Shown piece after piece: positions 4,809-43,142 of a stretch of DNA of 43,300 bases; within the stretch, counting starts at the first letter, position 1, and each line of letters opens with the position of its first letter. The stretch is from Candidatus Komeilibacteria bacterium. Its GTDB lineage: Bacteria > Patescibacteriota > Patescibacteriia > UBA1558 > GWA2-36-10. Position numbers and translations under genes: made by a program. Below the pieces are notes generated by a model. It ran no database searches. It saw only the letters and a list, made by a program, of their open reading frames with translations, and was not told the DNA's origin. The stretch lies in contig JABHYW010000007.1 in assembly GCA_018656655.1 (NCBI GenBank), positions 1 through 43,300 on the forward strand, given 5' to 3'.

Positions 4809-5213
4809 ATGAATTTAGAAAAACTTTTTGACCTAGCTTATATGTTCAATCGCTTTCCTCCGGCTGGCTTTTCCTGGCCAATTAGAATAGCACTACTTTT
4901 AATATTTGTAGGTTCTATTATATTAGCTCTATACGCTCAAAAAAAGATAAACGAAAAAGGGCTAAGTAAAAAACTATGGCAGAAAATACAAGTTTGGGGC
5001 TGGACCAATGGTTTAGTAGGTCTATTATTTGTATTTTTTAGAGAGGTTAAGACAATATATCTTGGTTCTCGTGGCTGGCTCTTAATTTTTATTATCATAA
5101 TGTTAATTTGGTTAGCTTTTATTATTAAATTTGCTAAAACAAAAATACCCAATAAAGAAGCTCAGGATAAAAAAAAGCAGGAGTTTGATAAATGGTTACC
5201 AAAAAGAAAATAA
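4809..5213 (+). CDS. hypothetical membrane protein (3 TM) with a basic tail
   Basis: Only long ORF here. Hydrophobic segments, K-rich C-terminus. No recognised family. Confidence 0.5.
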   Translation: MNLEKLFDLAYMFNRFPPAGFSWPIRIALLLIFVGSIILALYAQKKINEKGLSKKLWQKIQVWGWTNGLVGLLFVFFREVKTIYLGSRGWLLIFIIIMLIWLAFIIKFAKTKIPNKEAQDKKKQEFDKWLPKRK

Positions 5214-5237
5214 TTATTTAATATTACATTTTCTAAT

Positions 5238-5263
5238 AAAAACAGGTCTTAAAATCTGTTTTT
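5238..5263 (+). terminator. hairpin plus T-run abutting the yraN start codon
   Basis: aaaaacag/ctgttttt stem. The T-run ends one base before the ATG at 5264. Confidence 0.4.
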
Positions 5264-5608
5264 ATGTTAAACAAAAAATCACTAGGCCAATATGGGGAGC
5301 GAATAGCCTTAAGTTATTATCAAAAACTAGGTTATAAATTAATTACCCAAAATTATTATAGTCGTTACGGTGAGCTTGATCTAGTCCTAAAAAAAGATAA
5401 CAAAATTACTGTAGTAGAGGTCAAAACTAGATACGGTCCGCAATTTTATTGGCCTGAAGAAAGTATTAGTAACAAAAAAATAAACAATATCTATATAACT
5501 TATCAGCTATTAGCCAGGCAGGAGAAACTATCTGAGTTTTTTTATCTAGATGCTTTTATTATTGAAATCAATGGCTCTAAAGCTAAAATTAGACGCTATC
5601 AAATATAA
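5264..5608 (+). CDS. yraN: YraN/UPF0102 family endonuclease-like protein
   Basis: GERIALSYYQKLGYKLITQNYYSRYGELDLV...VVEVKTR is the family signature. Confidence 0.8.
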   Translation: MLNKKSLGQYGERIALSYYQKLGYKLITQNYYSRYGELDLVLKKDNKITVVEVKTRYGPQFYWPEESISNKKINNIYITYQLLARQEKLSEFFYLDAFIIEINGSKAKIRRYQI

Positions 5609-5784: not shown

Positions 5785-7182
5785 ATGGCAACAAACGATA
5801 TAGCAGCAGCTATAAAACAAATTGCCGACGAAAAAAACTTATCTATGGAGGCTATTATCGGAGCTATAGAAGCAGCTCTGGCCGCAGCTTTCCGTAAAGA
5901 GTTTGGCAATAAAAACCAAAACATCAAGGCAGTTTTTAACGCTGACAATGGTCAGACGGCTATTTTTGATGTAAAAACTGTAGTCGATGACGTAGATTTA
6001 GAAGAGGAAGAAAAACTAGTCGAAAAACAAAAGGAGAAAAAAGAGGCTGGTGATGAAATCCCTGAAGATGAGCTAATTAAAAGATTTAATTCCCGCTCAG
6101 AAATTATGCTGACCGAAGCTAATCAAGATGGTGGTGATTATAAAATTGGCGATATCATAGAAACTAAATTAGAAGTACCTGAGGAATATGGACGCATGGC
6201 TGCTCAGACTGCTAAGCAAGTAATTGTTCAGCGCTTACGTGAAGCTGAACGTGAGCATATCTTCAATGAATACAAAGATAAGGAAGGTGAATTAGTATTG
6301 GGCACAATTCAAAGAAAAGAGGGTAGAAGATTTATCGTTGATTTAGGTAAGGCTAATGCAATTCTACCAATTGAAGAACAAATTAGAACTGAACGATATA
6401 ATATTGGAGCTCGACTGAATTTTTACATCGTAGAAGTACGTGTAGGAAATAAAGGCCCAGAAATTGTATTGTCTCGTACTCATCCAGATATCGTCCATGA
6501 ACTTTTTGCTACTGAAGTTCCTGAAATTGCCGCTGGTACAGTAGAAATTAAATCTATTGCTCGTGAAGCAGGCTCTAGATCAAAGATAGCTGTAATCGCT
6601 ACTGAAGAAAATATTGACCCAGTTGGTTCTTGCGTAGGTCAACGTGGCTCTAGAGTTCAAACTGTTATTAATGAATTAGGTGGAGAAAAAATTGATATTA
6701 TAGAATGGGATGAAGATGAAAAAATGTTCATCGCCAATTCTCTTTCCCCGGCCGAAATAGAAAATATTGATACTAATAAAGAAGAACAAACTGCTTCTGT
6801 GAAAGTAGTTGATGACCAACTATCATTAGCTATTGGTCGTGGTGGTCAAAATGTAAGATTAGCTGCTAAATTGACTGGCTGGAAAATAGACATTATTTCT
6901 TCTGAAACTGGTGATAAAATTTCTGGTGATAAAAAAGACGTGTCGTCCGAAGCTTCAGCGAAGGATGAAGATGAAAAACCTAAGGATAAAAACAGTAAAG
7001 AAGAAGTAAAAGAAGAAAAGAAAGATACTAAAAAAGAAGATAAAGAAGATAAAAAGGAAAAACCGAAAAAAAAAGTTGCTAAGTCTAAAAAAGAAGATGA
7101 GGATGTTAAGGAAACTAAGCCAAAGAAAAAGGCTAGTAAAAAAACTTCTAAGGCTACTAAAAAAGACAAAGATATTAAATAA
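5785..7182 (+). CDS. nusA: transcription termination/antitermination factor NusA with a K/E-rich C-terminal tail
   Basis: NTD, S1 (GTIQRKEGRRFIVDLG) and two KH domains (VGSCVGQRGSRVQTV, AIGRGGQNVRLAAKLTGWKIDI). The last ~90 aa are lysine/glutamate low complexity. Confidence 0.95.
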   Translation: MATNDIAAAIKQIADEKNLSMEAIIGAIEAALAAAFRKEFGNKNQNIKAVFNADNGQTAIFDVKTVVDDVDLEEEEKLVEKQKEKKEAGDEIPEDELIKRFNSRSEIMLTEANQDGGDYKIGDIIETKLEVPEEYGRMAAQTAKQVIVQRLREAEREHIFNEYKDKEGELVLGTIQRKEGRRFIVDLGKANAILPIEEQIRTERYNIGARLNFYIVEVRVGNKGPEIVLSRTHPDIVHELFATEVPEIAAGTVEIKSIAREAGSRSKIAVIATEENIDPVGSCVGQRGSRVQTVINELGGEKIDIIEWDEDEKMFIANSLSPAEIENIDTNKEEQTASVKVVDDQLSLAIGRGGQNVRLAAKLTGWKIDIISSETGDKISGDKKDVSSEASAKDEDEKPKDKNSKEEVKEEKKDTKKEDKEDKKEKPKKKVAKSKKEDEDVKETKPKKKASKKTSKATKKDKDIK

Positions 7183-11513: not shown

Positions 11514-11663
11514 ATAGAAAATAAATAAAGTTACCCTCTGGATGGGTAGCCTCCAGTCTTCGCCCTAAAGCGAAGACTGCCCTGCGAAGCTTTATGCGTA
11601 GCATGGGCAATAAATAGTTTTTTATCAATTCAGCTTAGGCTTCGACTGGCACGCCACTTTTTT

Positions 11664-12298: not shown

Positions 12299-12375
12299 TG
12301 GAGCGAGTGACCGGGCTCGAACCGGCGACCTTTTCCTTGGCAAGGAAATGTTCTAGCCAACTGAACTACACTCGC
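12299..12375 (-). tRNA. tRNA-Gly (GCC), CCA encoded
   Basis: Minus strand gcgagtg-ta-gttc...gaac, anticodon loop ttGCCaa, T-arm gccgg-ttcgagc-ccggt, cactcgc-t-cca. Lies 5 nt upstream of tRNA-Leu. Confidence 0.9.
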
Positions 12376-16159: not shown

Positions 16160-16161
16160 AA

Positions 16162-16186
16162 ATCCAGTACCTACGGCTGGATTTTT
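16162..16186 (+). terminator. intrinsic terminator after holA
   Basis: atccag/ctggat stem followed by ttttt. Confidence 0.65.
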
Positions 16187-16353
16187 ATAATACTTTTTGT
16201 TAAGCTTATATTAAGAGTTAGCTTTTGGCCAAACTAACTCATGTGTCAACAGACACATAAACTAAGGCCGCCGCCGGAAATCAGGAAAAATTAGTAAAAG
16301 CTTAGTAGCGGCAAGCGAAAAGCTAATCGTGACAGATAACATTGAGACTAAAA

Positions 16354-16380
16354 AGAGCCTCTTCCGGCGGCTCTTTATTT
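16354..16380. terminator. bidirectional hairpin terminator
   Basis: agagcc-tcttccggc-ggctct with an A-run upstream and a T-run downstream. It lies 10 nt past the stop of the minus-strand AlkD-like gene. Confidence 0.6.
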
Positions 16381-16384
16381 TTGT

Positions 16385-17146
16385 CTAAAAATTACCCTTT
16401 AAAAACCTCTTACGCTTTGTTTCTTCCATTCGCTCTATAGCATAACGCAAAGTTGTCCGAGCTAAATTCTTATAATTAGTAATTAAAAACTTTTCTACTT
16501 TAATGCTATCTTTTTTCCAGGCCTCTCTAAGCATCCAACCAACTGCCTTGTGTATCAAATCTTGGCCCAGACCACCCTCTCTTGCTCCGCAATTCACCTT
16601 GTCTTTATCTTTCAATAAAATTTTAGAAAGTTTAAAACAGTCATCTAATTTACCTTCTCTAATAAAAATCCAAGTAGAAATCATAGCTATGCGTCTCTCC
16701 CAAAGCTTATTGCTCTTGGCATATTTATATAAAATTTGTTTAGTTTGTATTTTATCTAAAATTGCTTGCCCTAAAATATAATGAGCTGATAAATCTACTA
16801 AATCCCAATTATTTACATATTGTCTATTTTTAAGATAAAAACTTAAAATCTTTTTTTGCAATAATTTATCCTCGGCTTTCCTAGATTGTTTAGATCTTTC
16901 AACTAAAATCAAAATAGCTGCTAAACGTATTTCATGAATAGGTGATTTCATCAATTTAGCTAGCTCTACAAAATTTAAAGCTAAAAATTGCTTAGCTACT
17001 AACCTAGTATTTGGTACTGTAATGCCAATAAATTTATCCCCCTCACCATATTGACCTTTGCCGGTTTTAAAAAACCATTGATTAGATTTCTTACGCGCTG
17101 GTGAAGCGTATTTTTTTAATTCTTTAATTAAGTCTTTGGCTTTCAT
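16385..17146 (-). CDS. DNA alkylation repair protein (AlkD/AlkC-like HEAT-repeat glycosylase family)
   Basis: KKYASPARKKSNQWFFKTGKGQYGEGDKFIGI, NNWDLVD, LWERRIAM, HKAVGWMLRE family motifs. Carries an extra KVNCGAREGGLGQ segment. Confidence 0.8.
   Translation of the reverse strand: MKAKDLIKELKKYASPARKKSNQWFFKTGKGQYGEGDKFIGITVPNTRLVAKQFLALNFVELAKLMKSPIHEIRLAAILILVERSKQSRKAEDKLLQKKILSFYLKNRQYVNNWDLVDLSAHYILGQAILDKIQTKQILYKYAKSNKLWERRIAMISTWIFIREGKLDDCFKLSKILLKDKDKVNCGAREGGLGQDLIHKAVGWMLREAWKKDSIKVEKFLITNYKNLARTTLRYAIERMEETKRKRFLKGNF
16563..16609 (-). repeat. GC-rich in-frame repeat, copy A (inside the AlkD-like CDS)
   Basis: Identical 20-mer tggcccagaccaccctctct plus attcaccttgt shared with 42706-42752. 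Confidence 0.85.
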
Positions 17147-31757: not shown

Positions 31758-32252
31758 TTAGACTAATTTTTTATTAAAAAATGAGGCAGTAATTGCAGTG
31801 GCTAAGGCATCAGCCGCATCATCTGGCTTAGGCACAGCCTTTAACTTTAATATGGTCTTCACCATAAGACCTACTTGCCTTTTATCAGCATGCCCATTTG
31901 CGCAGACTGCTTGTTTAATTTGCAAAGGAGTAAATTCTAAAAACTCTTTTTTATTTTTGATAATAGCTAAAAGAAGAACTCCTCTGGCTTGCCCAACATC
32001 TAAAGCTGTCTTTACATTTTTAGCAAAAAATAATTTTTCAACAGCTATAATATCTGGCTTATGCTTTTTAATTAATTTATCTACCTCCTTATATATAATT
32101 TCCAAACGCTCACTAAAGGGTATTTTCTTAGAAGTCTGAATACTGCCAGTATCAACAAATTTTATACCAGCACCATCTTTTAAAATAACACCCCAGCCAG
32201 TATCTGCAAAACCAGGATCAAGGCCTAAAATAATTTTACTTGATTTTGACAT
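31758..32252 (-). CDS. ruvC: crossover junction endodeoxyribonuclease RuvC
   Basis: ILGLDPGFADTGWGVI, AVEKLFF, DAADALA. Confidence 0.95.
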   Translation of the reverse strand: MSKSSKIILGLDPGFADTGWGVILKDGAGIKFVDTGSIQTSKKIPFSERLEIIYKEVDKLIKKHKPDIIAVEKLFFAKNVKTALDVGQARGVLLLAIIKNKKEFLEFTPLQIKQAVCANGHADKRQVGLMVKTILKLKAVPKPDDAADALATAITASFFNKKLV

Positions 32253-32959
32253 TAAATCTCGGCGTTAGTGTAAATATTATTAACATCGTCATCATCATCT
32301 AAATCATCCATTAATTTTAAAAGCTGCTCTTCTTTAGTTGGAGCTATTTTTTCTTTTGCTAAATAAATCATCTCTGAAGATTCAGCCTCAAAGCCAGCTT
32401 CCTGTAATTTATTTTTTACAGCCTCCAAATTATCTAAAACAGTAATAACTTTTATTCTGGCATCGCTAGTATCTATATCTTCTGCACCGGCTTCAATAAT
32501 CTTCATTTCCTCTTCATCACTCAAAGTTTCTTTATTCAAAGTAATTTGACCTTTAGTGGCAAACATCCACTGCACACTGCCATCACCGCCTAAATTACCA
32601 CCGTGCTTAGTTAAGATATGTTTAAGATTAGATACACTTCTATTTTTATTGTCAGTTAAAATCTCAACAATTAAAGCTACACCACCTGGTCCATAACCTT
32701 CATATAAATAACTTTCTATTCTAGCTCCATCATCATCGCCACTGCCTTTTTTAACAGCTCTCTCTATATTATCTTTGGGCATAGAAAGTGATCTAGCCTT
32801 ATCAATAGCCATTCTCAATTTAAAATTCATATCTGGATCAGCTCCATCTCTGGCTGCTACGGCTATATTTTTAGATAATTTAGTAAACAAATTGCTACGT
32901 TTAGCGTCCTTGCCTTCTTTAGCACGTTTGATTGTTGACCATTTACTGTGTCCACTCAT
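32252..32959 (-). CDS. yebC: YebC/PmpR family DNA-binding regulator / translation factor
   Basis: MSGHSKWSTIKRAKEGKDAKRSNLFTKLSK is the family N-terminus. Confidence 0.95.
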   Translation of the reverse strand: MSGHSKWSTIKRAKEGKDAKRSNLFTKLSKNIAVAARDGADPDMNFKLRMAIDKARSLSMPKDNIERAVKKGSGDDDGARIESYLYEGYGPGGVALIVEILTDNKNRSVSNLKHILTKHGGNLGGDGSVQWMFATKGQITLNKETLSDEEEMKIIEAGAEDIDTSDARIKVITVLDNLEAVKNKLQEAGFEAESSEMIYLAKEKIAPTKEEQLLKLMDDLDDDDDVNNIYTNAEI

Positions 32960-32985
32960 ACATCAGTTTTTAAAGTTGAAAATTA

Positions 32986-33000
32986 GAAAGTCAAAAGTTA
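32986..33000. repeat. inverted near-copy (14/15) of the 15-mer tandem repeat
   Basis: gaaagtcaaaagtta versus the reverse complement gaaagtccaaagtta of the 33126-33155 units. Confidence 0.6.
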
Positions 33001-33125
33001 TATATTTTAAGCTTAAAAATAACGTCAATATTAATATAACCTTTAAAATAATCTTACCAATTATACAACAAAAAATCAACGTGTAGAAACTAATAAAAGC
33101 TTTTATTTTAAATGCCCTTGTGGCA

Positions 33126-33155
33126 TAACTTTGGACTTTCTAACTTTGGACTTTC
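33126..33155. repeat. perfect tandem 15-mer x2 (taactttggactttc)
   Basis: Read directly. The second unit ends 8 nt upstream of a -35 box. Confidence 0.9.
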
Positions 33156-33293: not shown

Positions 33294-34862
33294 ATGTTAA
33301 AATCAAAAAAATGGAATTGGGAATATCTATGGCTGACTATTATAATGTCAATTTATTATGGCCATATACAATGGAATAATTTTATTGGCGATCCCGATGG
33401 TTTTTATCATGCTAAACTAGCTAAATGGCTAAGCGAAGGTAAATTGATAGAAAGTTTACCTTGGATGCAATTTTCTAGCCTACGAGATAACTTTACTGAT
33501 CATCATTTACTTTATCATTTACTATTAGCTCCATTTACATACTTCTTTGATCCTCTAATAGGTGTAAAAATAGCTACCGTGGTCTTTGCTGTTTTAATGG
33601 TCTTAGCTTTTTATTGGCTATTGAAAAAAATGTATATTCCTTGGGCATTTTATTTTTCTTTAGGGTTTTTATTACTTAATGGATTAAATTTTAGAATATC
33701 CCTAATTAAAGCCAATAGTTTATCTTTGCTTATAATCTGGTTTATTATATATGCTTTGTTTGAACAAAAAAAAGGCCTATCTTTAATACTAGGTTTTTTA
33801 TTTGTCTGGCTCTATGGCGGATGGCCTCTGGCTATATTAATATTGGGCGTATATCTATTAGCTCAGAAAATACACCAAAAAATTCATGTTAATAAATTAA
33901 AAATATTTTGGCATCAAACTCTACATTTATTCGCTCGTGATAAAAAGCCACGATCAAGTTTAAAAATATCTCTCTATCTTTTAATTGGTTTGGGGCTGGG
34001 TATTTTAATTAATCCCTACTGGCCACAAAATTTATACCTTTATTACCAACAATTTTTACAAATTGGTGTGGTAAATATGGGAAGTAAATTTACAGTTGGT
34101 AGCGAATGGTACGGGTCAAATATTATGCAAATAATATCTTCTGCTCCACATCTTTTTGTGGTTGCTTCTATTTGTTTTGTAGTTTTATTTTTTCAAATAA
34201 AAAAAGTCAGTCGTTTAAGCTGGTTTTCTTTTATGTTAGCTCTAATATTTTTAATTCTAACTGTAAAATCTAAAAGATATGTAGAATACTACATGCCCTT
34301 CACTCTGCTTTTTGTAGCTAGCGCTAGTAAGGACATTAAAAGTTTTATTAATTGGTCAAAATTAAAAAAACTTTGGCATAGTTTAACTACTCAAATCAAA
34401 ATATACTTAAGTTTAGCTATATTAGTTTTTCTAAGCTTAATTATGGCCGTTAGTTATGACCGTATATTAGACGTTAAGCTATCTGGTATGCATCCTTTAG
34501 ATAAATTCCAAGGTGCTACTGAATGGCTAGCTAATAATACAGAACCTGAGTCTGTAATATTCCATAGTGATTGGGATGAGTGGCCAATCCTCTTTTATCA
34601 TAATGACCAAAATTACTATATAATAGGCCTAGATCCAACTTTCATGGAAAACTATGATTCTACATTACATGAGCTTTACAGAGAAATAACTCGTGGTGAT
34701 ATCAGGTACAAAGTTAGTAAATATATCCGAGAAGATTTTAAGGCTAGCCATGTCTTTGTTGACAAAGATGGTCATGAAAATTTTATTCGTAACTTAGACA
34801 TTGATTCTGAAATACTTAAAGTCTATGAAGATCAAAAAACTATAGTTTATCAATTGAAATAA
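33294..34862 (+). CDS. large polytopic membrane protein, GT-C-like (putative glycosyltransferase)
   Basis: 522 aa, more than 10 TM segments. Early loop GDPDGFYHAKLA as in PMT_2/ArnT-like proteins; soluble C-terminal domain. Confidence 0.5.
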   Translation: MLKSKKWNWEYLWLTIIMSIYYGHIQWNNFIGDPDGFYHAKLAKWLSEGKLIESLPWMQFSSLRDNFTDHHLLYHLLLAPFTYFFDPLIGVKIATVVFAVLMVLAFYWLLKKMYIPWAFYFSLGFLLLNGLNFRISLIKANSLSLLIIWFIIYALFEQKKGLSLILGFLFVWLYGGWPLAILILGVYLLAQKIHQKIHVNKLKIFWHQTLHLFARDKKPRSSLKISLYLLIGLGLGILINPYWPQNLYLYYQQFLQIGVVNMGSKFTVGSEWYGSNIMQIISSAPHLFVVASICFVVLFFQIKKVSRLSWFSFMLALIFLILTVKSKRYVEYYMPFTLLFVASASKDIKSFINWSKLKKLWHSLTTQIKIYLSLAILVFLSLIMAVSYDRILDVKLSGMHPLDKFQGATEWLANNTEPESVIFHSDWDEWPILFYHNDQNYYIIGLDPTFMENYDSTLHELYREITRGDIRYKVSKYIREDFKASHVFVDKDGHENFIRNLDIDSEILKVYEDQKTIVYQLK

Positions 34863-36889: not shown

Positions 36890-37348
36890 TCAGCGGTTCT
36901 GACAATTAAATGACCCGTCGGGTGCTTCTACTATCCTTTCATACGCCTCGCACTCTAATCGCTCGCCTGGAGTTAGTCTTAGGCCAGTGCTTACCATTAG
37001 AGCATTTGTTATATATAAGGTCAAAGAATAGGAAATTAAAATAAGAAGCAAGCCTAAAAATGCATTTTTTAAGGTAGTTTTAGCAGCCAAGACTTTTTCA
37101 GCATTACCCCCAGAAGTCATCCACATAAATCCAGCTGTTAAAATAAAATACGTGGAAACTATTCCAAGAATAGTCAAAAAACCATTAATCAATCTAGCAG
37201 CCACTTGATAAACATTTGTTTTACTACCAAAACCAGCTGTGGTAGCAGCCTCTTGGAGTCCAGCCTGACCAATAATGGTCTCTGCTAAAACTGCCAGAGG
37301 AATAAAAAGTAATAATAATAAAACTAATTTGTATTTTTGAAATTTCAT
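36890..37348 (-). CDS. TrbC/VirB2-like (T4SS-type) pilin paralogue 1
   Basis: Start moved to the ATG at 37348 (MKFQKYKLVLLLLLFIPLAVLA signal peptide). Two TM helices around WMTSGGNAEKVLAAK. Short C-terminal tail with 2 Cys. Confidence 0.6.
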   Translation of the reverse strand: MKFQKYKLVLLLLLFIPLAVLAETIIGQAGLQEAATTAGFGSKTNVYQVAARLINGFLTILGIVSTYFILTAGFMWMTSGGNAEKVLAAKTTLKNAFLGLLLILISYSLTLYITNALMVSTGLRLTPGERLECEAYERIVEAPDGSFNCQNR

Positions 37349-37375
37349 TTTGTTTTTACTATATAGTGTAAGCTC

Positions 37376-37403
37376 TAGTAGGTTATTATATAATAACCTA
37401 CTA
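37376..37403. repeat. perfect 28-nt palindrome between pilin genes 2 and 1
   Basis: tagtaggttattatataataacctacta equals its own reverse complement (checked by hand). Confidence 0.9.
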
Positions 37404-37433
37404 TAGTCTAGACTACATATATAAATTGAACCA

Positions 37434-37799
37434 TTATTCAACAGTTTGAGTATATAATTCGCTTAATATGAATCTGGATACAGCGTAAGCTGTTAATACA
37501 ATTACCAAGCCAACAATACCAGCACCGATAAGTTTTTTAGCTTCGTCAACTTTTTCAGTATTACCTTGAGAAGTCATCCATTTAAAACCACCTAACAAAA
37601 TAATTAAAGTAGTTAAAATTCCTAGAAAACCTAGAATAATATTAATTACTCCACCAATTGTTTCTCTTAAAGGCCTTGAGCCTAAAGCAATGTTAGTATT
37701 CTGGAAATCATTAAATCCCCAATCATCAACGCTTCCAGGTTGAGCTTTAGCAGATAAAGTAGGAGCTAAAACCATTAAAGAAATAAGTATTTTTTTCAT
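37434..37799 (-). CDS. TrbC/VirB2-like pilin paralogue 2
   Basis: ATG at 37799 with SD agggggtga 7 nt upstream. Signal peptide MKKILISLMVLAPTLSAKA; motif WMTSQGNTEKVDEAK. Confidence 0.65.
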   Translation of the reverse strand: MKKILISLMVLAPTLSAKAQPGSVDDWGFNDFQNTNIALGSRPLRETIGGVINIILGFLGILTTLIILLGGFKWMTSQGNTEKVDEAKKLIGAGIVGLVIVLTAYAVSRFILSELYTQTVE

Positions 37800-37883
37800 T
37801 TTTTCACCCCCTTTCAAATATAGTAAATTTAATTAAATTATAGAACAAAAAGAATAATTTTACAATTTTTTTATTAAAAGCTA

Positions 37884-38225
37884 TTAAGCGTTTCCACCAA
37901 TAATAGTAAATAAGAAATTAATAATTATATAACTCATAAATATAATTACTAAGCCTAATATCGTCCACAAAACAGTATCTTTTCCTTTTTTAAGTCTCTC
38001 AGCACTACCCCCTGAAGTCATCCAGAGCATACCACCCCAAACCATCATTAAAAGAGCTATAGCTCCCGTAATACCCAATAGACCCTTAATCATTTGACCT
38101 GCTAAATCTGGGATATTATCTGCTTGCAATGGATTTGGTAAAGGTACTCGCCTAGAAGTACCCTGCCCACTAACCATATTCGGAAAAAGTAAAAGGGTAA
38201 ATAATATAATTTTTTTAATTAACAT
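37884..38225 (-). CDS. TrbC/VirB2-like pilin paralogue 3
   Basis: Signal peptide, then WMTSGGSAERLKKGK between two TM helices. Confidence 0.65.
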   Translation of the reverse strand: MLIKKIILFTLLLFPNMVSGQGTSRRVPLPNPLQADNIPDLAGQMIKGLLGITGAIALLMMVWGGMLWMTSGGSAERLKKGKDTVLWTILGLVIIFMSYIIINFLFTIIGGNA

Positions 38226-38264
38226 AATATTTGAAAATAATTTATTAATAAATATAGATAATTA

Positions 38265-38954
38265 TTATGGGTGATAAATGCAAGTATGGCTACTTTCTGC
38301 ACACTGCACACCTGGAGTTATACTCCAGCCTACTAGTACGTACGGCACACAACGACCGAAACGCGTATAGTCACTAAGTATCATACCCTGATATTTACAA
38401 ATATCCATGCAAGTATTACTATATGATTCCCAAAATGAATTGGAAATGACGCCAGTACACTCTTCATAATCACCACACTCCTCTTCACAAGACTCCGAAT
38501 CAGTCTCGGAATCAGGCTCAGAATTATTATTTAGATTTTGAGGTGTAAAATCACCCGCTTGAATTCTAAAATCAATAGAATTATTACTGCCGTCTTTAAC
38601 ATTTAAAACATCATTTACAAAAAATCCAACTAATAAATAACTACTAAAAGCTATCGTAATAGCCCAAAATGTATTTAGCATAATTTGCTTACCCCTATTT
38701 ACTCTTTCAGCACTGCCGCCAGATGTAAGCCACTGTAGACCACCCCATACAAAATATAATAAAGCCACTGCCCCCATCATACCTAGTAAATATTTTATTA
38801 ATAAAGACAAACCAAATGCTATATGTCCTAAATGACAATCACCATTCTTAATACAACTTAAGTTAGCATCATCCAAAAATCCTGCCTGAGCTATTTGAGG
38901 AACTAGGATAAATAAACCAGCTACAAATAAAATTTTAGTTATTAGGCGGTACAT
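38265..38954 (-). CDS. TrbC/VirB2-like pilin paralogue 4 with an acidic linker and Cys-rich C-terminal module
   Basis: WLTSGGSAERVNRGK core. ATG at 38954 preferred (the TTG at 38978 is also possible). About 110 extra C-terminal residues with 9 Cys. Confidence 0.6.
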   Translation of the reverse strand: MYRLITKILFVAGLFILVPQIAQAGFLDDANLSCIKNGDCHLGHIAFGLSLLIKYLLGMMGAVALLYFVWGGLQWLTSGGSAERVNRGKQIMLNTFWAITIAFSSYLLVGFFVNDVLNVKDGSNNSIDFRIQAGDFTPQNLNNNSEPDSETDSESCEEECGDYEECTGVISNSFWESYSNTCMDICKYQGMILSDYTRFGRCVPYVLVGWSITPGVQCAESSHTCIYHP

Positions 38955-40317
38955 ATGTTTGATTAATTTTATTAACAAATAAACTAACTGGTGTAGCTTC
39001 TTGATCCATTACTAATTCACCAGATACAAGACCATCAATTATTTCAGCTGTAAATTTTTCAGCTAAAGAAATATTATAACCATTATACCAATTATCAGCC
39101 GTTAAAACCTGAGAAGCAAAAGTGGCTAATTCATAATCATTAAGTTGCCTATCAATTAAAGCTCTAAGAGCTGTTGGTCTTTTATTAGCCTCTAAATATA
39201 TACTTACTTTATCAGCAGCACTTGTAGTTTGAATAAAATTCCAAGCTGCATCAATATTATTTGATTTTTTAGACACTACATTCACCCAATAATCTGCATA
39301 ATATTTAGTGCCACTAGCTCCTCTAGTTTGTGGAAAGTTTTTTATATCCCAATCAAACTGTAAATTTCTATTTCTAAGTTGATCAGCATGATAACTATAG
39401 CCAAACATATAGGCTAGCCTGCCGCTAGCAAACATTTCCAGGGCATCGGTTGCATCAGCATTCCAACTATAACTAGCCCTACCTGGTCTTGCAAAATCAG
39501 TATAAAAATTAAAAGCTTGTACTAATCTGGTAGAAGATTCTGTATTAGCTAAAGGGTTAAAATTTTTACCTGAAGCCTCTACCCCATTTTGTAACATAAT
39601 ACTAGAAAATACGTCAAAAAACCTTGGTATATTATCTGTACCTCCCAAGGCTACAGCTGATTGAATTATTCTATTACTATCAGTGGCCTTAGTAAGCCTT
39701 GGAGCTTGCTCAACTAGGTCAAAAAAATCATCCATTGGTTCTGGAATGCCAGCTTGAGTAAGCAAATCAATATTATAAAATGTTGCTAAAGTATCAAGAT
39801 AATATGGCAAGGCATAAACCTTATTATCTAAAATTACATCTTCATATACCACTGAAACATATTGATTTTTTACATCTTGTGGAGATAAGCCTTTAAAGTT
39901 TTTTAATACCACAGCTAACTCTTGTTTAATACTGCCCTGTAATTCATATACTGGAATCTTATGAGTATTTGGCATCGGCACTATCCTATGCTGATAGCTT
40001 TTAAGCCAAGTAGATGGTATAGCAAAGACATCTGGACCTCTGTCATCAGCCCAAGCTTCTAACAATTTTCGCTCATACTCAGCATATCTAAAATTTTTAT
40101 ATTTAAAGCTTATAGTAGGGTGACTCTGATTATAATCATCCATTAAGGCCTTTAATTGTTCTGGTGAATCCCAAACTCCCCAATAATTTAAAGTTACCCT
40201 GTCATAAGAAGCTGGATTTTTCTTAAAAGGATTCCACTTGCAGCCAAAACCTGAGCTAACAACAAATATCATTAGCATGAGTAGTGTAAATATTTTTATC
40301 CTTTTTTTAACAAGCAT
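38935..40317 (-). CDS. extracellular solute-binding protein (ABC family-1, sugar type), probable lipoprotein
   Basis: Signal peptide ending SSGFGC. Size and the NYWGVWD...LEAWADDRGPDVF pattern resemble MalE/UgpB-like binding proteins. Confidence 0.7.
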   Translation of the reverse strand: MLVKKRIKIFTLLMLMIFVVSSGFGCKWNPFKKNPASYDRVTLNYWGVWDSPEQLKALMDDYNQSHPTISFKYKNFRYAEYERKLLEAWADDRGPDVFAIPSTWLKSYQHRIVPMPNTHKIPVYELQGSIKQELAVVLKNFKGLSPQDVKNQYVSVVYEDVILDNKVYALPYYLDTLATFYNIDLLTQAGIPEPMDDFFDLVEQAPRLTKATDSNRIIQSAVALGGTDNIPRFFDVFSSIMLQNGVEASGKNFNPLANTESSTRLVQAFNFYTDFARPGRASYSWNADATDALEMFASGRLAYMFGYSYHADQLRNRNLQFDWDIKNFPQTRGASGTKYYADYWVNVVSKKSNNIDAAWNFIQTTSAADKVSIYLEANKRPTALRALIDRQLNDYELATFASQVLTADNWYNGYNISLAEKFTAEIIDGLVSGELVMDQEATPVSLFVNKINQTYVPPNN

Positions 40318-41230: not shown

Positions 41231-41851
41231 TTAATTTAAAATATTTTTACGATGTTCAAAAATATGAGAGCCTAAGTCAAAAATTATTTTTAAAATCACT
41301 AAAAAAACCACAGCTGAGACTTCTTGACTATAATTTGTATATATAATACCTGCTCCAGCTAACATAATTATAATATGCATTATAATTATCCTTCTGTAAG
41401 GCACAAACATTTGTTTCTTAAGACTAACATATTTGAATTCCTGTTTTTTTATAAAATTAAACACAAAAGACATACCATGGCTCAAAAATATAAAAGATAA
41501 AGAAATAATCAAAGCTTTGAAATATTCAAAAACAATAACAAATGCCGCTACCTGTCCAGAAGCTAATTCTAAATTTGGCTGAAAAAGTTGAAGGATAAAA
41601 AATAAATGAACAAACATAAAAATTACATAGTGCATTATAAAAAATGGCACTAGTGGAGTAAATTTATAATTATTTATCTTTTGCATTTTCAAGATATTAA
41701 AAAAGCCAATTACAGCTGACTCCATCCAATACAAAATAATAACAGTAAATATATCCCAAGAAAAAAATAAGACTCCCAACAAAGGAATTAAATTTACTAA
41801 AATTAAAACTAAACTAGAAGGATAAAAAAATATTTTATTAAATTTTGACAT
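41231..41851 (-). CDS. hypothetical polytopic membrane protein
   Basis: 206 aa, about 6 TM helices. No motif recognised. Confidence 0.5.
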   Translation of the reverse strand: MSKFNKIFFYPSSLVLILVNLIPLLGVLFFSWDIFTVIILYWMESAVIGFFNILKMQKINNYKFTPLVPFFIMHYVIFMFVHLFFILQLFQPNLELASGQVAAFVIVFEYFKALIISLSFIFLSHGMSFVFNFIKKQEFKYVSLKKQMFVPYRRIIIMHIIIMLAGAGIIYTNYSQEVSAVVFLVILKIIFDLGSHIFEHRKNILN

Positions 41852-42668
41852 CTTTTTTATATTTAGAAACTACTAATGTAAAAACTAACATTGTAAAAAA
41901 CAAAACACTTAGATCATTTTTAAAATAAGGTACATCAACTAAGCCATGAACAAACCAAGTTAGCCACATCATAGATAATGGCCAAGCCAAATTATTATTA
42001 GCTTTAAATATATCTTTTAATAATAAAATTACATAAATTATTAAACCTATAAAAACTAATAAACCTAATAGACCCATCTCTGTCCAAAAGTTTAAAAATA
42101 TATTATGCGGATATAAATAAATTTCTAACCACTCTGTGTGATGATAAGCCTCTAAGGCATTTTGATATCCATTTAAACCTGTACCTAATAAAAAATTATC
42201 AGCTAACAAAGCACTTGTTTCTTGCCATTGATTTAGGCGAATATCTAAAGAGCTGGACTGTAAATTTAACTCTGGATTAATATCTATTTTAGGTAAAACT
42301 AATAATATACTAATTAGTCCTAAAATAATGACAGGAATAGCTATTTTTCTGAGTTTTTTAGCTAATATTAGAGCTAAAAATAGTGAAAAAATAATAGCCA
42401 ATATAGCACCTTGAGAGACTGTCATGATAGCCAATACTAGACCAAAAACAAATAATATTAAATAATGCCAGTTGAATAATTTGTCTTTAGTGTAAATCCA
42501 AAGACCGGCAAATAAAGCGGTCAGTGGAGCAGTTAAAAGACTCAAAGCATTTGGATAAGCAAAAGGCCCAGTTAACCTCTTAACATTAGGAAAATTATAA
42601 GCATCAATATAATTCCAAGTCGTAAAATTTTGATACATAGCAACGGTAAATAACCAAGCCAATAACAA
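41838..42668 (-). CDS. O-antigen ligase/polymerase (Wzy_C)-like membrane protein, C-terminal 276-codon piece
   Basis: SQGAILAIIFSL and YPHNIFLNFWTEMGLLGLL resemble Wzy_C motifs. The ORF starts only at a TTG and is in frame with 42729..43142. Confidence 0.6.
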   Translation of the reverse strand: MLLAWLFTVAMYQNFTTWNYIDAYNFPNVKRLTGPFAYPNALSLLTAPLTALFAGLWIYTKDKLFNWHYLILFVFGLVLAIMTVSQGAILAIIFSLFLALILAKKLRKIAIPVIILGLISILLVLPKIDINPELNLQSSSLDIRLNQWQETSALLADNFLLGTGLNGYQNALEAYHHTEWLEIYLYPHNIFLNFWTEMGLLGLLVFIGLIIYVILLLKDIFKANNNLAWPLSMMWLTWFVHGLVDVPYFKNDLSVLFFTMLVFTLVVSKYKKDVKI

Positions 42669-42705
42669 GGCCAGAGAATTTATAATTACTGTCCAATCTT
42701 TTTTA

Positions 42706-42752
42706 TGGCCCAGACCACCCTCTCTGGCTTAGCCATTCACCTTGTTCTTAAC
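42706..42752 (-). repeat. GC-rich in-frame repeat, copy B (contains the TAA that splits the ligase-like frame)
   Basis: Identical 20-mer plus 11-mer shared with 16563-16609. Confidence 0.85.
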
Positions 42753-43142
42753 TGTATAAACAAAAACTAGAAAAAACATTAGAGGCTCTAAAAAATAAGC
42801 TCGCCATAATCCCAAGGAGGCATAAGTAAAATTTGTTAACAAAGCTAAGATGGCAGCCAGTGACCACAAGCCTAATAAGTATCTCAAAGCTTTAGGCACT
42901 TGATTATCAAAAGTTTTTTGTAGAGAAAAATTTATTGCTTTATATTTTTTTTCTTTAAGTAACCAAACTATAAATAAAGAAACTATCAGAAGCTCTAAAA
43001 AAGTAGTTGGTATACCTAGAATATTAAAACACCAAAGATAAGATGGTAATAAAACTATCACAGCTCCTACTCCCCAAAGTGGTTTCCTATAACTTAGCCA
43101 AATGAAACCGACTAATAAAATGGCGAAAAATAAATCCATCAT
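42729..43142 (-). CDS. N-terminal 137-codon piece of the O-antigen-ligase-like membrane protein
   Basis: Four TM helices. It ends at a TAA at 42729-42731 in the same frame as the downstream piece. ATGA overlap with the upstream gene. Confidence 0.5.
   Translation of the reverse strand: MMDLFFAILLVGFIWLSYRKPLWGVGAVIVLLPSYLWCFNILGIPTTFLELLIVSLFIVWLLKEKKYKAINFSLQKTFDNQVPKALRYLLGLWSLAAILALLTNFTYASLGLWRAYFLEPLMFFLVFVYTVKNKVNG

What the first reader, a model, noticed from the sequence alone, without database searches (positions are those of the whole stretch)
42669..42745. A single in-frame TAA inside the repeat splits a 434-codon O-antigen-ligase-like frame; the geometry resembles a take-off/landing bypass site
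ORFs 42729..43142 and 41838..42668 are in the same frame. My translation of the 60 nt between them has no other stop: ...KNKVNG * AREGGLGHKKDWTVIINSLA-LLLAWLF.... The joined length of 1305 nt is normal for Wzy_C/O-antigen-ligase proteins. The N-terminal piece supplies the first TM helices and the C-terminal piece holds the family motifs.

The stop directly follows a GGC codon, and an identical GGC lies 24 nt downstream (ggc taa gcc aga gag ggt ggt ctg ggc). On the mRNA, tggc/gcca flank the TAA and gccaga/tctg(g)gc can pair. This is reminiscent of programmed translational bypassing, where matched take-off and landing codons flank a stop after take-off with local structure (phage T4 gene 60, Magnusiomyces byps).

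More mundane alternatives are a nonsense pseudogene, a genuinely split gene restarting at TTG 42668, stop read-through, or a sequencing or assembly error.
Basis: partly seen in the sequence, partly recalled or inferred. Interest (0 to 1): 0.75.

Follow-up and report, generated by a model that had tools for sequence, protein, structure and literature searches.

The report
Nonsense allele inside a mobile mini-hairpin insert
The stop codon is a single-base change (GAA to TAA) inside a 39-base hairpin-bearing mobile insert that landed in frame in a surface-polysaccharide polymerase gene, so it is most likely an ordinary knockout allele rather than a ribosome-hopping site, but the insert belongs to an apparently undescribed mini-element family shared by several bacterial phyla and phages.

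Summary
On the minus strand, 43142..41838 is one 435-codon Wzy_C frame with a single TAA (42731..42729), preceded by GGC and followed 24 nt later by another GGC.

The bypass reading is not supported. The TAA lies in the loop codon of a 39-nt GC-rich insert (42706-42744). A second copy sits in frame in an unrelated AlkD-like gene (16563-16601).

Strains 99% identical to the window show three states:
- an empty site (421 aa);
- the insert with GAA, in at least five assemblies (434-436 aa);
- the insert with TAA, in this contig only.

About 45 distinct copies share two conserved boxes around a covarying 4-7 bp hairpin with a triloop. They occur in Patescibacteria genes (always the same frame), in intergenic hairpins of Gammaproteobacteria and Clostridia, and at the N-terminus of phage DUF2800 nuclease genes. 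No other coding copy carries a stop. The GGC/GGC match follows from one stem variant plus the conserved 3' box.

Most likely this is a recent nonsense allele, or less likely a consensus error. The noteworthy result is the element family. It matches no Rfam family, and I found no description of it in the literature searched.

The parts
41838..43142 (-). Wzy_C / O-antigen-polymerase-like gene, 435 codons including one internal TAA. It lies in a wzx - wzy - DUF6498 - NTP-transferase operon.
   Evidence: Translation. Pfam PF04932. Orthologues of 420-436 aa. Synteny with L018 and L034.
42706..42744 (-). Element copy B: a 39-nt mini-insert, CAAGGTGAAT GGC TAA GCC AGAGAGGGTGGTCTGGGCCA, encoding K-V-N-G-*-A-R-E-G-G-L-G-H.
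   Evidence: Absent from the 99%-identical strain L018, where the alignment breaks at 42707-42747. Present with GAA in L017 and L034. Covariance-model hit of 71 bits.
42725..42735 (-). Mini-hairpin TGGC-TAA-GCCA: a 4-bp stem with a 3-nt loop that coincides with one codon.
   Evidence: All 60 of 60 alignment cells are paired, and two pairs show 3-4 pair types; 0 of 500 shuffles reach the observed value. Across 45 distinct copies there are 23 different 5' arms, all complementary to their partners.
42729..42731 (-). The in-frame TAA, which is the loop codon of the hairpin. Every other allele of this insertion has GAA.
   Evidence: Compared with L034, the gene differs at 10 of 1305 nt, one of which is T versus G at gene position 412. 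P0121, P0243, P0244, P0247 and P0249 all read ...KVNGEAREGGLGH....
42732..42734 (-). It forms part of the 5' arm of the hairpin.
   Evidence: Sequence. The stem variants are listed.
42708..42710 (-). It is part of the conserved 3' box ...CTGGGCCA.
   Evidence: Conserved in 14 of 15 Patescibacteria copies whatever the stem sequence.
42729..43142 (-). N-terminal ORF fragment, 137 aa, containing hydrophobic segments 1-4.
41838..42668 (-). C-terminal ORF fragment. The first possible start is TTG at 42668. The public record annotates the ATG at 42636-42638, giving a 266-aa protein (P0241). Either start falls within or after the hydrophobic segment at residues 151-169.
16563..16601 (-). Element copy A: a 39-nt insert, CAAGGTGAAT TGC GGA GCA AGAGAGGGTGGTCTGGGCCA, in frame and open (K-V-N-C-G-A-R-E-G-G-L-G-Q) within the AlkD-like gene.
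   Evidence: It is a clean 39-nt insertion relative to the orthologue L035: empty AAAGA|AGATTTG versus filled AAAGA[39 nt]AGATTTG. Covariance-model hit of 74 bits.
16385..17146 (-). AlkD-like DNA alkylation repair gene (253 aa), host of copy A.
   Evidence: Pfam PF08713, E=1e-53. Orthologues are 240 aa and lack these 13 residues.

Best explanation
The TAA is a single-base substitution (GAA to TAA) in the loop codon of a 39-nt hairpin-bearing mini-element.

The element inserted in frame into a short hydrophilic loop of a Wzy-type polysaccharide polymerase gene, between hydrophobic segments 4 and 5. This happened in one sub-lineage of a Komeilibacteria-like Patescibacteria species. The element is normally translated straight through as about 13 extra residues, K-V-N-x-x-x-R-E-G-G-L-G-Q/H.

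In this contig the mutation truncates the protein after 137 residues. The gene is therefore most likely a recent loss-of-function allele, a common fate for surface-polysaccharide genes, and not a recoding site.

Shown:
- the insertion itself;
- its three allelic states;
- the single-base difference;
- the family-wide open frame;
- the covarying hairpin.

Inferred:
- that the TAA allele is null;
- that the element moves as single-stranded DNA or a hairpin, recognised by an enzyme supplied in trans. The junction has no target duplication and no terminal inverted repeats, and insertion follows a purine-rich AAAGA-like motif or falls within hairpin loops.
For: 1. Same species, three states.
- L018 (99.06% identical over 9.5 kb) has the empty site ACA GTT AAA GAT|AAA AAA GAT.
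- L017 and L034 (99.6% identical over 6.5 kb, no gaps) have the insert with GAA.
- The window differs at that codon only by G to T.
- The cluster look-up finds 434-482-aa alleles with E (P0121, P0243 on 6 contigs, P0244, P0247, P0249) and 421-aa empty alleles (P0242 on 18 contigs, and others). The window's own product is the only truncated one.

2. The insert is a repeat family.
- A second copy lies in AlkD as a clean 39-nt insertion relative to the orthologue.
- 13 further Patescibacteria-type copies lie in unrelated genes, recognised by inspecting the translated ORFs: dnaE, gyrA, grpE, rpsQ, a KH-domain protein, a carbamoyltransferase and others.
- All are in the same frame and orientation, and none has a stop.

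3. The hairpin covaries, and the loop codon is the most variable position: GAA, GGA, AAA, GCA, GTA, TAA.

4. About 20 phage DUF2800 genes carry a 45-nt version in frame at codons 4-18.

5. No other gene in the roughly 30 kb shared with relatives is disrupted, so the contig is not generally error-ridden.

6. Restart at the TTG or ATG would drop all or part of the hydrophobic segment at residues 151-169.
Against: - No reads are available, so a consensus error or a minority variant cannot be excluded.
- The gene shows no second lesion, so decay is not advanced. An intact-looking downstream frame is equally compatible with very recent inactivation or with some rescue mechanism.
- The local geometry (Gly codon, stop, hairpin, SD-like GAGG, matching Gly codon) does resemble known hop sites. 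Low-level hopping or read-through cannot be ruled out by sequence alone.
- The Wzy insertion junction is not perfectly clean: AAAGA in the empty allele versus AAGAA in the filled one.
Confidence: 0.78

Rival explanations
1. Assembly or sequencing artefact, or a minority variant. On this view the organism's real sequence has GAA, like its relatives, and the gene is intact at 434 aa.
For: The TAA is seen in one contig only. All five other filled alleles in the 90% cluster have E at this position. The change is a single base in a GC-rich hairpin.
Against: The remaining ~6.5 kb aligned to L034 and ~11 kb aligned to L018 contain no gaps and no other broken ORFs. Random consensus errors that happen to create a stop are rare. 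Other true strain differences (9 more in this gene) show that this is a distinct haplotype.
Confidence: 0.12
2. Programmed or fortuitous translational bypass. Peptidyl-tRNA-Gly would leave GGC at 42732-42734, skip the TAA, re-pair at a downstream GGU or GGC (42708-42719), and produce a full-length polymerase.
For: A matching GGC lies 24 nt downstream. The stop follows immediately after the proposed take-off codon. There is local pairing potential and an SD-like GAGAGG 5' of the proposed landing codon. A tRNA-Gly(GCC) gene is present in the window. These features echo the published gene 60 signals (PMC7026636; bioRxiv 10.1101/2022.08.31.505936).
Against: - The same cassette with a sense codon is the common allele.
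- The element is a multiple of 3 in length and open in all other coding copies.
- The GGC match is absent in 6 of 15 copies.
- The covarying hairpin includes the take-off codon itself, so it cannot act as an A-site stem-loop.
- The upstream nascent peptide is a hydrophobic transmembrane segment, in which I see no resemblance to the gene 60 nascent-peptide signal; this was not tested formally.
- No orthologue conserves the interruption.
Confidence: 0.04
3. A genuinely split gene. The 137-aa N-terminal and roughly 266-276-aa C-terminal polypeptides would be made separately, with restart at TTG 42668 or ATG 42638, and would assemble into a working enzyme.
For: In-frame TTG and ATG codons lie 20 and 30 codons downstream. 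The public record annotates the 266-aa piece.
Against: No orthologue among more than 100 is split. Either restart removes all or part of the hydrophobic segment at residues 151-169, which would disturb topology. I saw no SD-like sequence upstream of either start by eye in the sequence. The split is only one mutation old.
Confidence: 0.04
4. Stop-codon read-through of UAA would yield the 434-aa protein at a low level.
For: None specific. The 60 nt after the stop are open.
Against: No suppressor tRNA is present in the window. From general knowledge, UAA is the least leaky bacterial stop codon. No read-through context is conserved.
Confidence: 0.02

Closest known systems
[quoted passage not shown] 2000 and 2002, as summarised in PMC10969869
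   Same: It is a short repeat with hairpin potential. It inserts in frame into many unrelated housekeeping genes, is translated as extra peptide in loops or tails, and shows presence/absence differences between orthologues.
   Different: - RPEs are about 100-150 bp and confined to Rickettsia. This element is 39-50 nt with no detectable relation to them.
- It consists of two strongly conserved boxes around a freely covarying 4-7 bp triloop hairpin.
- It occurs in several phyla and in phages.
- It appears to be low-copy: 2 copies in the 43-kb window.
Yeast mitochondrial GC clusters and Magnusiomyces 'byps' (own knowledge; the key bypass signals in yeast mitochondrial mRNAs are noted in PMC7026636)
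   Same: These are GC-rich mobile hairpin elements of 27-55 nt inserted into coding sequence of a very AT-rich genome. One copy here carries a stop immediately after a codon that recurs downstream.
   Different: Byps are not translatable and must be hopped. Here every other copy is an open, in-frame multiple of 3 and is evidently translated. Matched codons are not a family feature.
Phage T4 gene 60 bypass cassette (PMC7026636; bioRxiv 10.1101/2022.08.31.505936)
   Same: Gly codon followed by a stop, local stem-loop potential, an internal SD-like GAG, and a matching Gly codon downstream. The cassette is mobile DNA.
   Different: - The gap would be 24 nt, not 50.
- There is no recognisable nascent-peptide signal.
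- The hairpin geometry differs.
- The stop is absent from all relatives.
- The T4 cassette is tied to a homing endonuclease in topoisomerase genes.
REP/REPIN elements mobilised by RAYT (IS200-like Y1 transposases), and IS200/IS605-type single-strand transposition (PMC3733652; own knowledge)
   Same: It is a small hairpin with conserved flanking nucleotides. There is no target-site duplication and no terminal inverted repeats, and insertion occurs next to a short preferred motif. In one Haliea locus, three copies flank a Y1_Tnp gene and are nested in GTAG-tagged REP arms.
   Different: - The element itself has no GTAG/CGTC tag.
- It is intragenic in Patescibacteria.
- No Y1 transposase lies in the window or in any other fetched locus.
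- It has a single hairpin only.

Membership tests
Programmed translational bypass (T4 gene 60 / byp type) | Matched take-off and landing codons flanking the gap | tested here: inconclusive
   GGC and GGC are present in this copy. However, the match follows from the TGGC stem variant plus the conserved 3' box, and it is absent in 6 of 15 copies.
Programmed translational bypass (T4 gene 60 / byp type) | A stop or 'hungry' codon right after take-off, conserved among homologous cassettes | tested here: not met
   A stop is present only in the window. All other alleles and copies have a sense codon there: GAA, GGA, AAA, GCA or GTA.
Programmed translational bypass (T4 gene 60 / byp type) | The intervening sequence is non-coding (untranslatable or out of frame) | tested here: not met
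   The element is 39 or 45 nt, in frame and open in 12 independent Patescibacteria sites and about 20 phage genes.
Programmed translational bypass (T4 gene 60 / byp type) | A take-off stem-loop that starts at the A-site stop codon | tested here: not met
   The covarying hairpin has the P-site GGC in its 5' arm and the TAA as its loop. The alternative GCCAGA/UCUGGC stem is not conserved.
Programmed translational bypass (T4 gene 60 / byp type) | A nascent-peptide signal upstream, and a bridged protein product | not testable with these tools
   This needs proteomics, ribosome profiling or a reporter assay. The upstream peptide is a hydrophobic transmembrane segment.
In-frame mobile repeats in protein-coding genes (RPE-like) | The same short sequence inserted in several unrelated genes | tested here: met
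   Copies occur in Wzy, AlkD, DnaE, GyrA, GrpE, uS17, a KH protein, a carbamoyltransferase and phage DUF2800 genes. Only Wzy, AlkD and DUF2800 were confirmed with Pfam; the other hosts were recognised by inspecting the translated ORFs.
In-frame mobile repeats in protein-coding genes (RPE-like) | Presence/absence between close orthologues with otherwise collinear sequence | tested here: met
   Wzy: empty and filled alleles in strains at 99% nucleotide identity. AlkD: 253 aa versus 240 aa orthologues, with a clean 39-nt difference.
In-frame mobile repeats in protein-coding genes (RPE-like) | The reading frame of the host gene is preserved | tested here: met
   All coding copies are open except the window's Wzy copy.
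In-frame mobile repeats in protein-coding genes (RPE-like) | Sequence homology to the RPE families | not tested
   No RPE sequences were compared. The size and architecture differ.
MITE | Terminal inverted repeats and a target-site duplication | tested here: not met
   The ends CAAGGTG... and ...GGGCCA are not inverted repeats. The AlkD junction shows no duplication.
REP / RAYT system | A GTAG or CGTC tag, extragenic location, and an associated Y1 transposase | tested here: not met
   The element has no tag, and it is intragenic in the window. A Y1_Tnp gene was found next to copies in only one locus, L001.
Rfam RNA families | A match to a curated covariance model | tested here: not met
   No family matched at gathering score in the window or in the 16 other loci searched. 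Only chance-level hits appeared at E up to 10.
Wzy_C / O-antigen ligase family (host gene) | A Pfam PF04932 match above the cut-off in a polytopic membrane protein of about 420 aa | tested here: met
   65.8 bits against a cut-off of 31.7. Multiple hydrophobic segments. Orthologues are listed.

The most novel reading that the evidence does not exclude
The 39-nt insert may be the minimal form of an undescribed, cross-phylum family of coding-compatible mobile hairpin elements.

Its architecture is a 5' box (C)AAGGTGAAT, a freely covarying 4-7 bp triloop hairpin, and a 3' box AGAGAGGSYGGYCWGGGCCA.

It colonises ORFs in one frame in Patescibacteria, sits in REP-like hairpin loops in Gammaproteobacteria and Clostridia, and has a recurrent 'home' at codons 4-18 of phage DUF2800 nuclease genes. 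It would be moved by an as yet unidentified machinery specific for single-stranded DNA or hairpins, possibly phage-borne or of the HUH/Y1 type.

A still more exotic sub-reading is that stop-bearing copies such as this one are rescued by Gly-to-Gly ribosome hopping. I put that at about 0.04.
Probability: 0.45. Interest if true: 0.75.

Novelty: new variant of a known kind. Interest (0 to 1): 0.55.

Why it matters
The flagged TAA itself is ordinary. It is a one-step knockout, or an error, in a polysaccharide polymerase gene, and it should be annotated as a pseudogene or variant rather than as recoding.

What it uncovered is less ordinary: a tiny element of 39-50 nt that inserts into essential genes without breaking them.
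- It is polymorphic between strains 99% identical.
- It keeps two nearly invariant boxes and a structurally constrained hairpin across Patescibacteria, Clostridia, Gammaproteobacteria and phages.
- It matches no Rfam family, and I found no description of it in the literature searched.

If it is confirmed as mobile, several things follow.
- It would extend the 'selfish DNA inside proteins' phenomenon, known from Rickettsia RPEs, to streamlined ultra-small bacteria and to phages.
- It would point to an unidentified mobilising activity.
- It would explain some lineage-specific peptide insertions in proteins from metagenome-assembled genomes.
- It would provide a natural cassette for testing how hairpins and SD-like sequences inside ORFs affect translation.

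Tried and rejected
- **Profile search for the peptide.** I built a 40-column profile with random flanks around the 15-aa element peptide and searched the 5.8-billion-protein set. Only 11 candidates emerged and none scored.
- **Other insert families.** I tried to fetch DNA for other mini-insert families seen in orthologues (P0130, P0003). No DNA was available.
- **Rfam.** No family matched in the window, the non-Patescibacteria loci or the phage loci.
- **Literature.** Searches by sequence string, peptide, Patescibacteria/MITE/in-frame terms and DUF2800 motifs found no description.
- **First viral scan.** The strict Patescibacteria-type pattern gave 0 hits. The plasmid collection gave only chance-level hits.
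- **Transposase search.** tblastn with the Haliea RAYT and the GIY-YIG protein against all fetched loci found no further copies. No transposase-like gene appeared among the window ORFs that were scanned or covered by syntenic annotation.
- **Ideas considered and rejected.**
  - A spliceosomal-like or group II-like mini-intron. The boundaries do not restore the empty-site sequence.
  - A tRNA or rRNA fragment. By eye I saw no resemblance to conserved tRNA or 16S rRNA sequence; no formal comparison was run.
  - A MITE. There are no terminal inverted repeats and no target-site duplication.
  - A +1/-1 double frameshift around the TAA. Re-pairing is not possible at GGC_UAA.
  - Thermodynamic stability of the hairpin. 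It is not significant on its own (z about -1.4 to -1.8). The support comes from covariation, not from energy.

Full report
**1. The observation**

On the minus strand, ORF 43142..42729 (137 aa) and ORF 42668..41838 (276 aa, TTG start) are in one frame. Translating 43142..41838 gives 435 codons with a single internal stop...KNKVNG*AREGGLGHKKDW....

Pfam places Wzy_C in the C-terminal piece. More than 100 orthologues are single proteins of about 420-440 aa.

**2. The stop lies inside a small insertion**

A repeat search shows that 42706-42753 recurs at 16563-16610, with 85% identity and a 20-nt exact core. That second site lies inside an intact AlkD-like gene (PF08713). It is read in the same frame: KDKVNCGAREGGLGQ versus KNKVNG*AREGGLGH.

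The closest AlkD orthologues are 240 aa and lack exactly these 13 residues. At the DNA level the difference is a clean 39-nt insertion. The empty site is ...AAA GAC AAA GA|A GAT TTG, and the filled site is ...AAA GAT AAA GA[CAAGGTGAATTGCGGAGCAAGAGAGGGTGGTCTGGGCCA]A GAT TTG.

For the Wzy gene, metagenomic relatives of the same species show three states:
- **Empty.** L018 is 99.06% identical over 9.5 kb. Its alignment breaks exactly at the element, and its site reads TVKD|KKDW (421 aa).
- **Filled with GAA.** L017 and L034 carry the same insert with GAA. L034 is 99.58% identical over 6.5 kb with no gaps.
- **Filled with TAA.** The window differs from L034 at 10 of 1305 nt in the gene, one of them being G to T in that codon.

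The 90%-identity cluster contains five filled alleles with Glu: P0121, P0243 (on 6 contigs), P0244, P0247 and P0249. It also contains several 421-aa empty alleles, including P0242 on 18 contigs. The only truncated product is the window's own 266-aa annotation.

The AlkD insertion is widespread in the species (P0251 on 58 contigs), whereas the Wzy insertion is polymorphic. The element therefore moved recently.

**3. The element family in Patescibacteria**

One genome scan and one metagenome scan with exact patterns recovered 13 further distinct copies in AT-rich contigs. Among them are contigs of Gracilibacteria and Falkowbacteria.

All share three parts: CAAGGTGAAT, then a 4-bp stem with a 3-nt loop, then AGAGAGGGTGGTCTGGGCCA.

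The stem covaries, with variants TGGC/GCCA, TTGC/GCAA, TTCC/GGAA, TCAC/GTGA and TGAC/GTCA. All 60 of 60 cells are paired, 10 cells carry double changes, and 0 of 500 shuffles reach the observed value. Slid controls give only 15-57% paired.

Wherever the copy lies in a long ORF, it is in the same orientation and frame, and it is open. By inspection of the translated ORFs, the hosts include DnaE, GyrA, GrpE, uS17, a KH protein and a carbamoyltransferase. This holds for 12 independent sites.

The 5' flank is mostly AAAGA. In the window's ORFs, 48% of all AAAGA occurrences on either strand are in sense phase 0 (AAA GA.). Target preference thus explains part of the frame bias. The remainder (p of roughly 3e-4 to 2e-3) implies selection on the encoded peptide or a strand-specific mechanism.

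The loop coincides with one codon and is the most variable position: GAA, GGA, AAA, GCA, GTA. TAA occurs only in the window.

**4. The family is wider than Patescibacteria**

A covariance model built from the 15 copies also scores 35-54 bits on loci I had first dismissed as chance hits. These loci come from Cellvibrionaceae, Haliea, Pseudomaricurvus, Pseudoflavonifractor and an Oscillospiraceae MAG.

There the boxes are the same, but the hairpin is longer, with 5-7 bp stems. The copies are intergenic and often multi-copy, and they are nested in the loops or arms of REP-like palindromes.

In Haliea, three copies flank an IS200-like Y1 transposase gene (PF01797) and sit between GTAG-tagged REP arms. 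This is the only such association found.

A phage-collection search and a relaxed IMG/VR scan then found a 45-nt version in Streptococcus prophages Javan105, 102, 108 and 112 and in about 20 viral contigs with GC content from 34% to 56%. In nearly all of them it occupies codons 4-18 of a DUF2800/PD-(D/E)XK gene, reading M-x-x-Q-K-V-N-C-x-x-G-A-R-E-A-G-L-G-H-A-L-L-S... The Pfam DUF2800 profile begins right after the element, at residue 19.

Across 45 distinct sequences there are 23 different 5' arms, all complementary to their partners. The mean stem is 5.64 bp, against 2.78 (maximum 3.53) when partners are shuffled.

No Rfam family matches, and I found no description in the literature searched.

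One caveat applies. The collection scans required exact box matches, so box conservation is partly ascertained. The covariance model did recover more diverged copies.

**5. What the TAA is**

The simplest reading is a G-to-T substitution in the loop codon of a recently acquired, normally translated insert. It truncates the polymerase after 137 residues.

The element sits in the short hydrophilic loop between hydrophobic segments at residues 110-131 and 151-169. The downstream in-frame starts are TTG at residue 159 and ATG at residue 169. Using either would lose all or part of that segment, so a functional two-piece enzyme is unlikely.

No other gene in the shared roughly 30 kb is broken, which argues against a generally poor assembly. 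Without reads, however, a consensus error remains possible.

**6. Why not bypass**

Published defining features of gene 60-type bypass are:
- matched take-off and landing codons;
- a conserved stop or 'hungry' codon at take-off;
- an A-site take-off stem-loop;
- a nascent-peptide signal;
- a gap SD;
- an untranslatable gap.

These are taken from PMC7026636 and bioRxiv 10.1101/2022.08.31.505936.

Here the results are as follows:
- The stop is unique to one contig.
- The 'gap' is in frame and is translated in every relative.
- The GGC/GGC match exists only when the variable stem is TGGC, which is true of 9 of 15 copies.
- The conserved hairpin contains the would-be take-off codon itself.
- The SD-like GAGAGG and the Gly codons are constant features of the element whether or not a stop is present.

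Fortuitous low-level hopping by tRNA-Gly(GCC), whose gene is at 12299-12375, cannot be excluded. Nothing indicates that it is programmed.

**7. How the element probably works (inference)**

The element shows:
- no target-site duplication;
- no terminal inverted repeats;
- a single structurally constrained hairpin between two conserved boxes;
- insertion after a short purine-rich motif (AAAGA^) or into hairpin loops;
- a uniform orientation relative to transcription.

This is most reminiscent of hairpin-dependent mobilisation on single-stranded DNA, as in the HUH/Y1 enzymes of REP-RAYT and IS200/IS605. The enzyme would be supplied in trans.

The recurrent site in phage replication-module genes suggests that phages are a reservoir or vector. 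This is a hypothesis. I would put the HUH-type mechanism at about 0.2.

The Wzy junction is slightly imprecise: AAAGA in the empty allele versus AAGAA in the filled one. I cannot explain this.

**8. Comparison with known systems, and verdict**

Functionally, the closest known system is the Rickettsia palindromic elements, which are in-frame selfish DNA in housekeeping genes (PMC10969869). This element is three to four times smaller, unrelated in architecture, and spans several phyla and phages.

It resembles mitochondrial GC clusters and byps in being a GC-rich hairpin inside AT-rich coding sequence. Unlike them, it is translated.

The flagged TAA is ordinary. The element behind it is a new variant of a known kind and deserves a proper census.

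Noticed in passing
Orthologues of the two host genes (proteins P0003, P0015, P0010, P0012, P0024, P0005, P0130, P0138): Other short lineage-specific peptide inserts recur at other positions in related Patescibacteria orthologues. In AlkD these are 'SRGAGPSQRRR' / 'SRVAGPRQRRW' and 'SA[DG]SAQN'. In Wzy they are 'S[SA]LASSSRRV' in two different species, plus a Pro/Gly/Arg-rich C-terminal tail in P0138. They may be further families of in-frame mini-inserts.
   Followed up: partly
L037 2995-3046 (Streptococcus phage Javan105, MK448667.1 15547-15598), and the same site in Javan102, 108 and 112: The annotated start of the DUF2800-like gene (15652) looks too far downstream. An in-frame TTG overlapping the upstream stop, preceded by GGAGG, gives MTKQKVNCITGAREAGQGHAVLSPSSSHRWLNC... 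This includes the element and restores the family's conserved N-terminus.
   Followed up: partly
L001 4690-5520 (Haliea MAG CAXBCH010000004): An IS200-like Y1 transposase (RAYT-like, 4897-5343 on the minus strand) lies directly after glyA. It is flanked by three GTAGGAGC...-tagged REP units, each carrying a long-stem copy of the element.
   Followed up: partly
L012 5140-5800 and L003 4800-5400 (Cellvibrionaceae SEMH9): Tandem intergenic units of about 190 nt (180-310 nt in L003) each contain the element. In L012 they lie next to a small GIY-YIG gene (5845-6165). The last unit lacks the element and looks like an 'empty' site (...GAAGCAA|TCCATGTG...).
   Followed up: partly
window 16160-16384: The 225-nt intergenic stretch between the holA-like gene and the AlkD-like gene contains several GC-rich hairpins, for example gccgccggaagaggctc and ccggcggcggcc. 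It matches no Rfam family.
   Followed up: no
window 11529-11591: A GC-rich palindromic stretch (..CAGTCTTCGCCCTAAAGCGAAGACTG..) lies just downstream of tRNA-Cys. Its role is unexplained; it may be a terminator or a small structured RNA.
   Followed up: no
window 36890-38978: A cluster of four small paralogous genes with TrbC/T4SS-pilin-like Pfam hits, inferred from synteny with L018. They share a 26-nt repeat, TCAGCATTACCCCCAGAAGTCATCCA (repeat family D2), at 37098, 37555, 37999 and 38707.
   Followed up: no
window 32972-33154: A 30-nt inverted repeat (87% complementary, arms 123 nt apart) lies in the 330-nt gap between divergently transcribed genes (32252-32959 on the minus strand and 33294-34862 on the plus strand). 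It may be a regulatory site.
   Followed up: no
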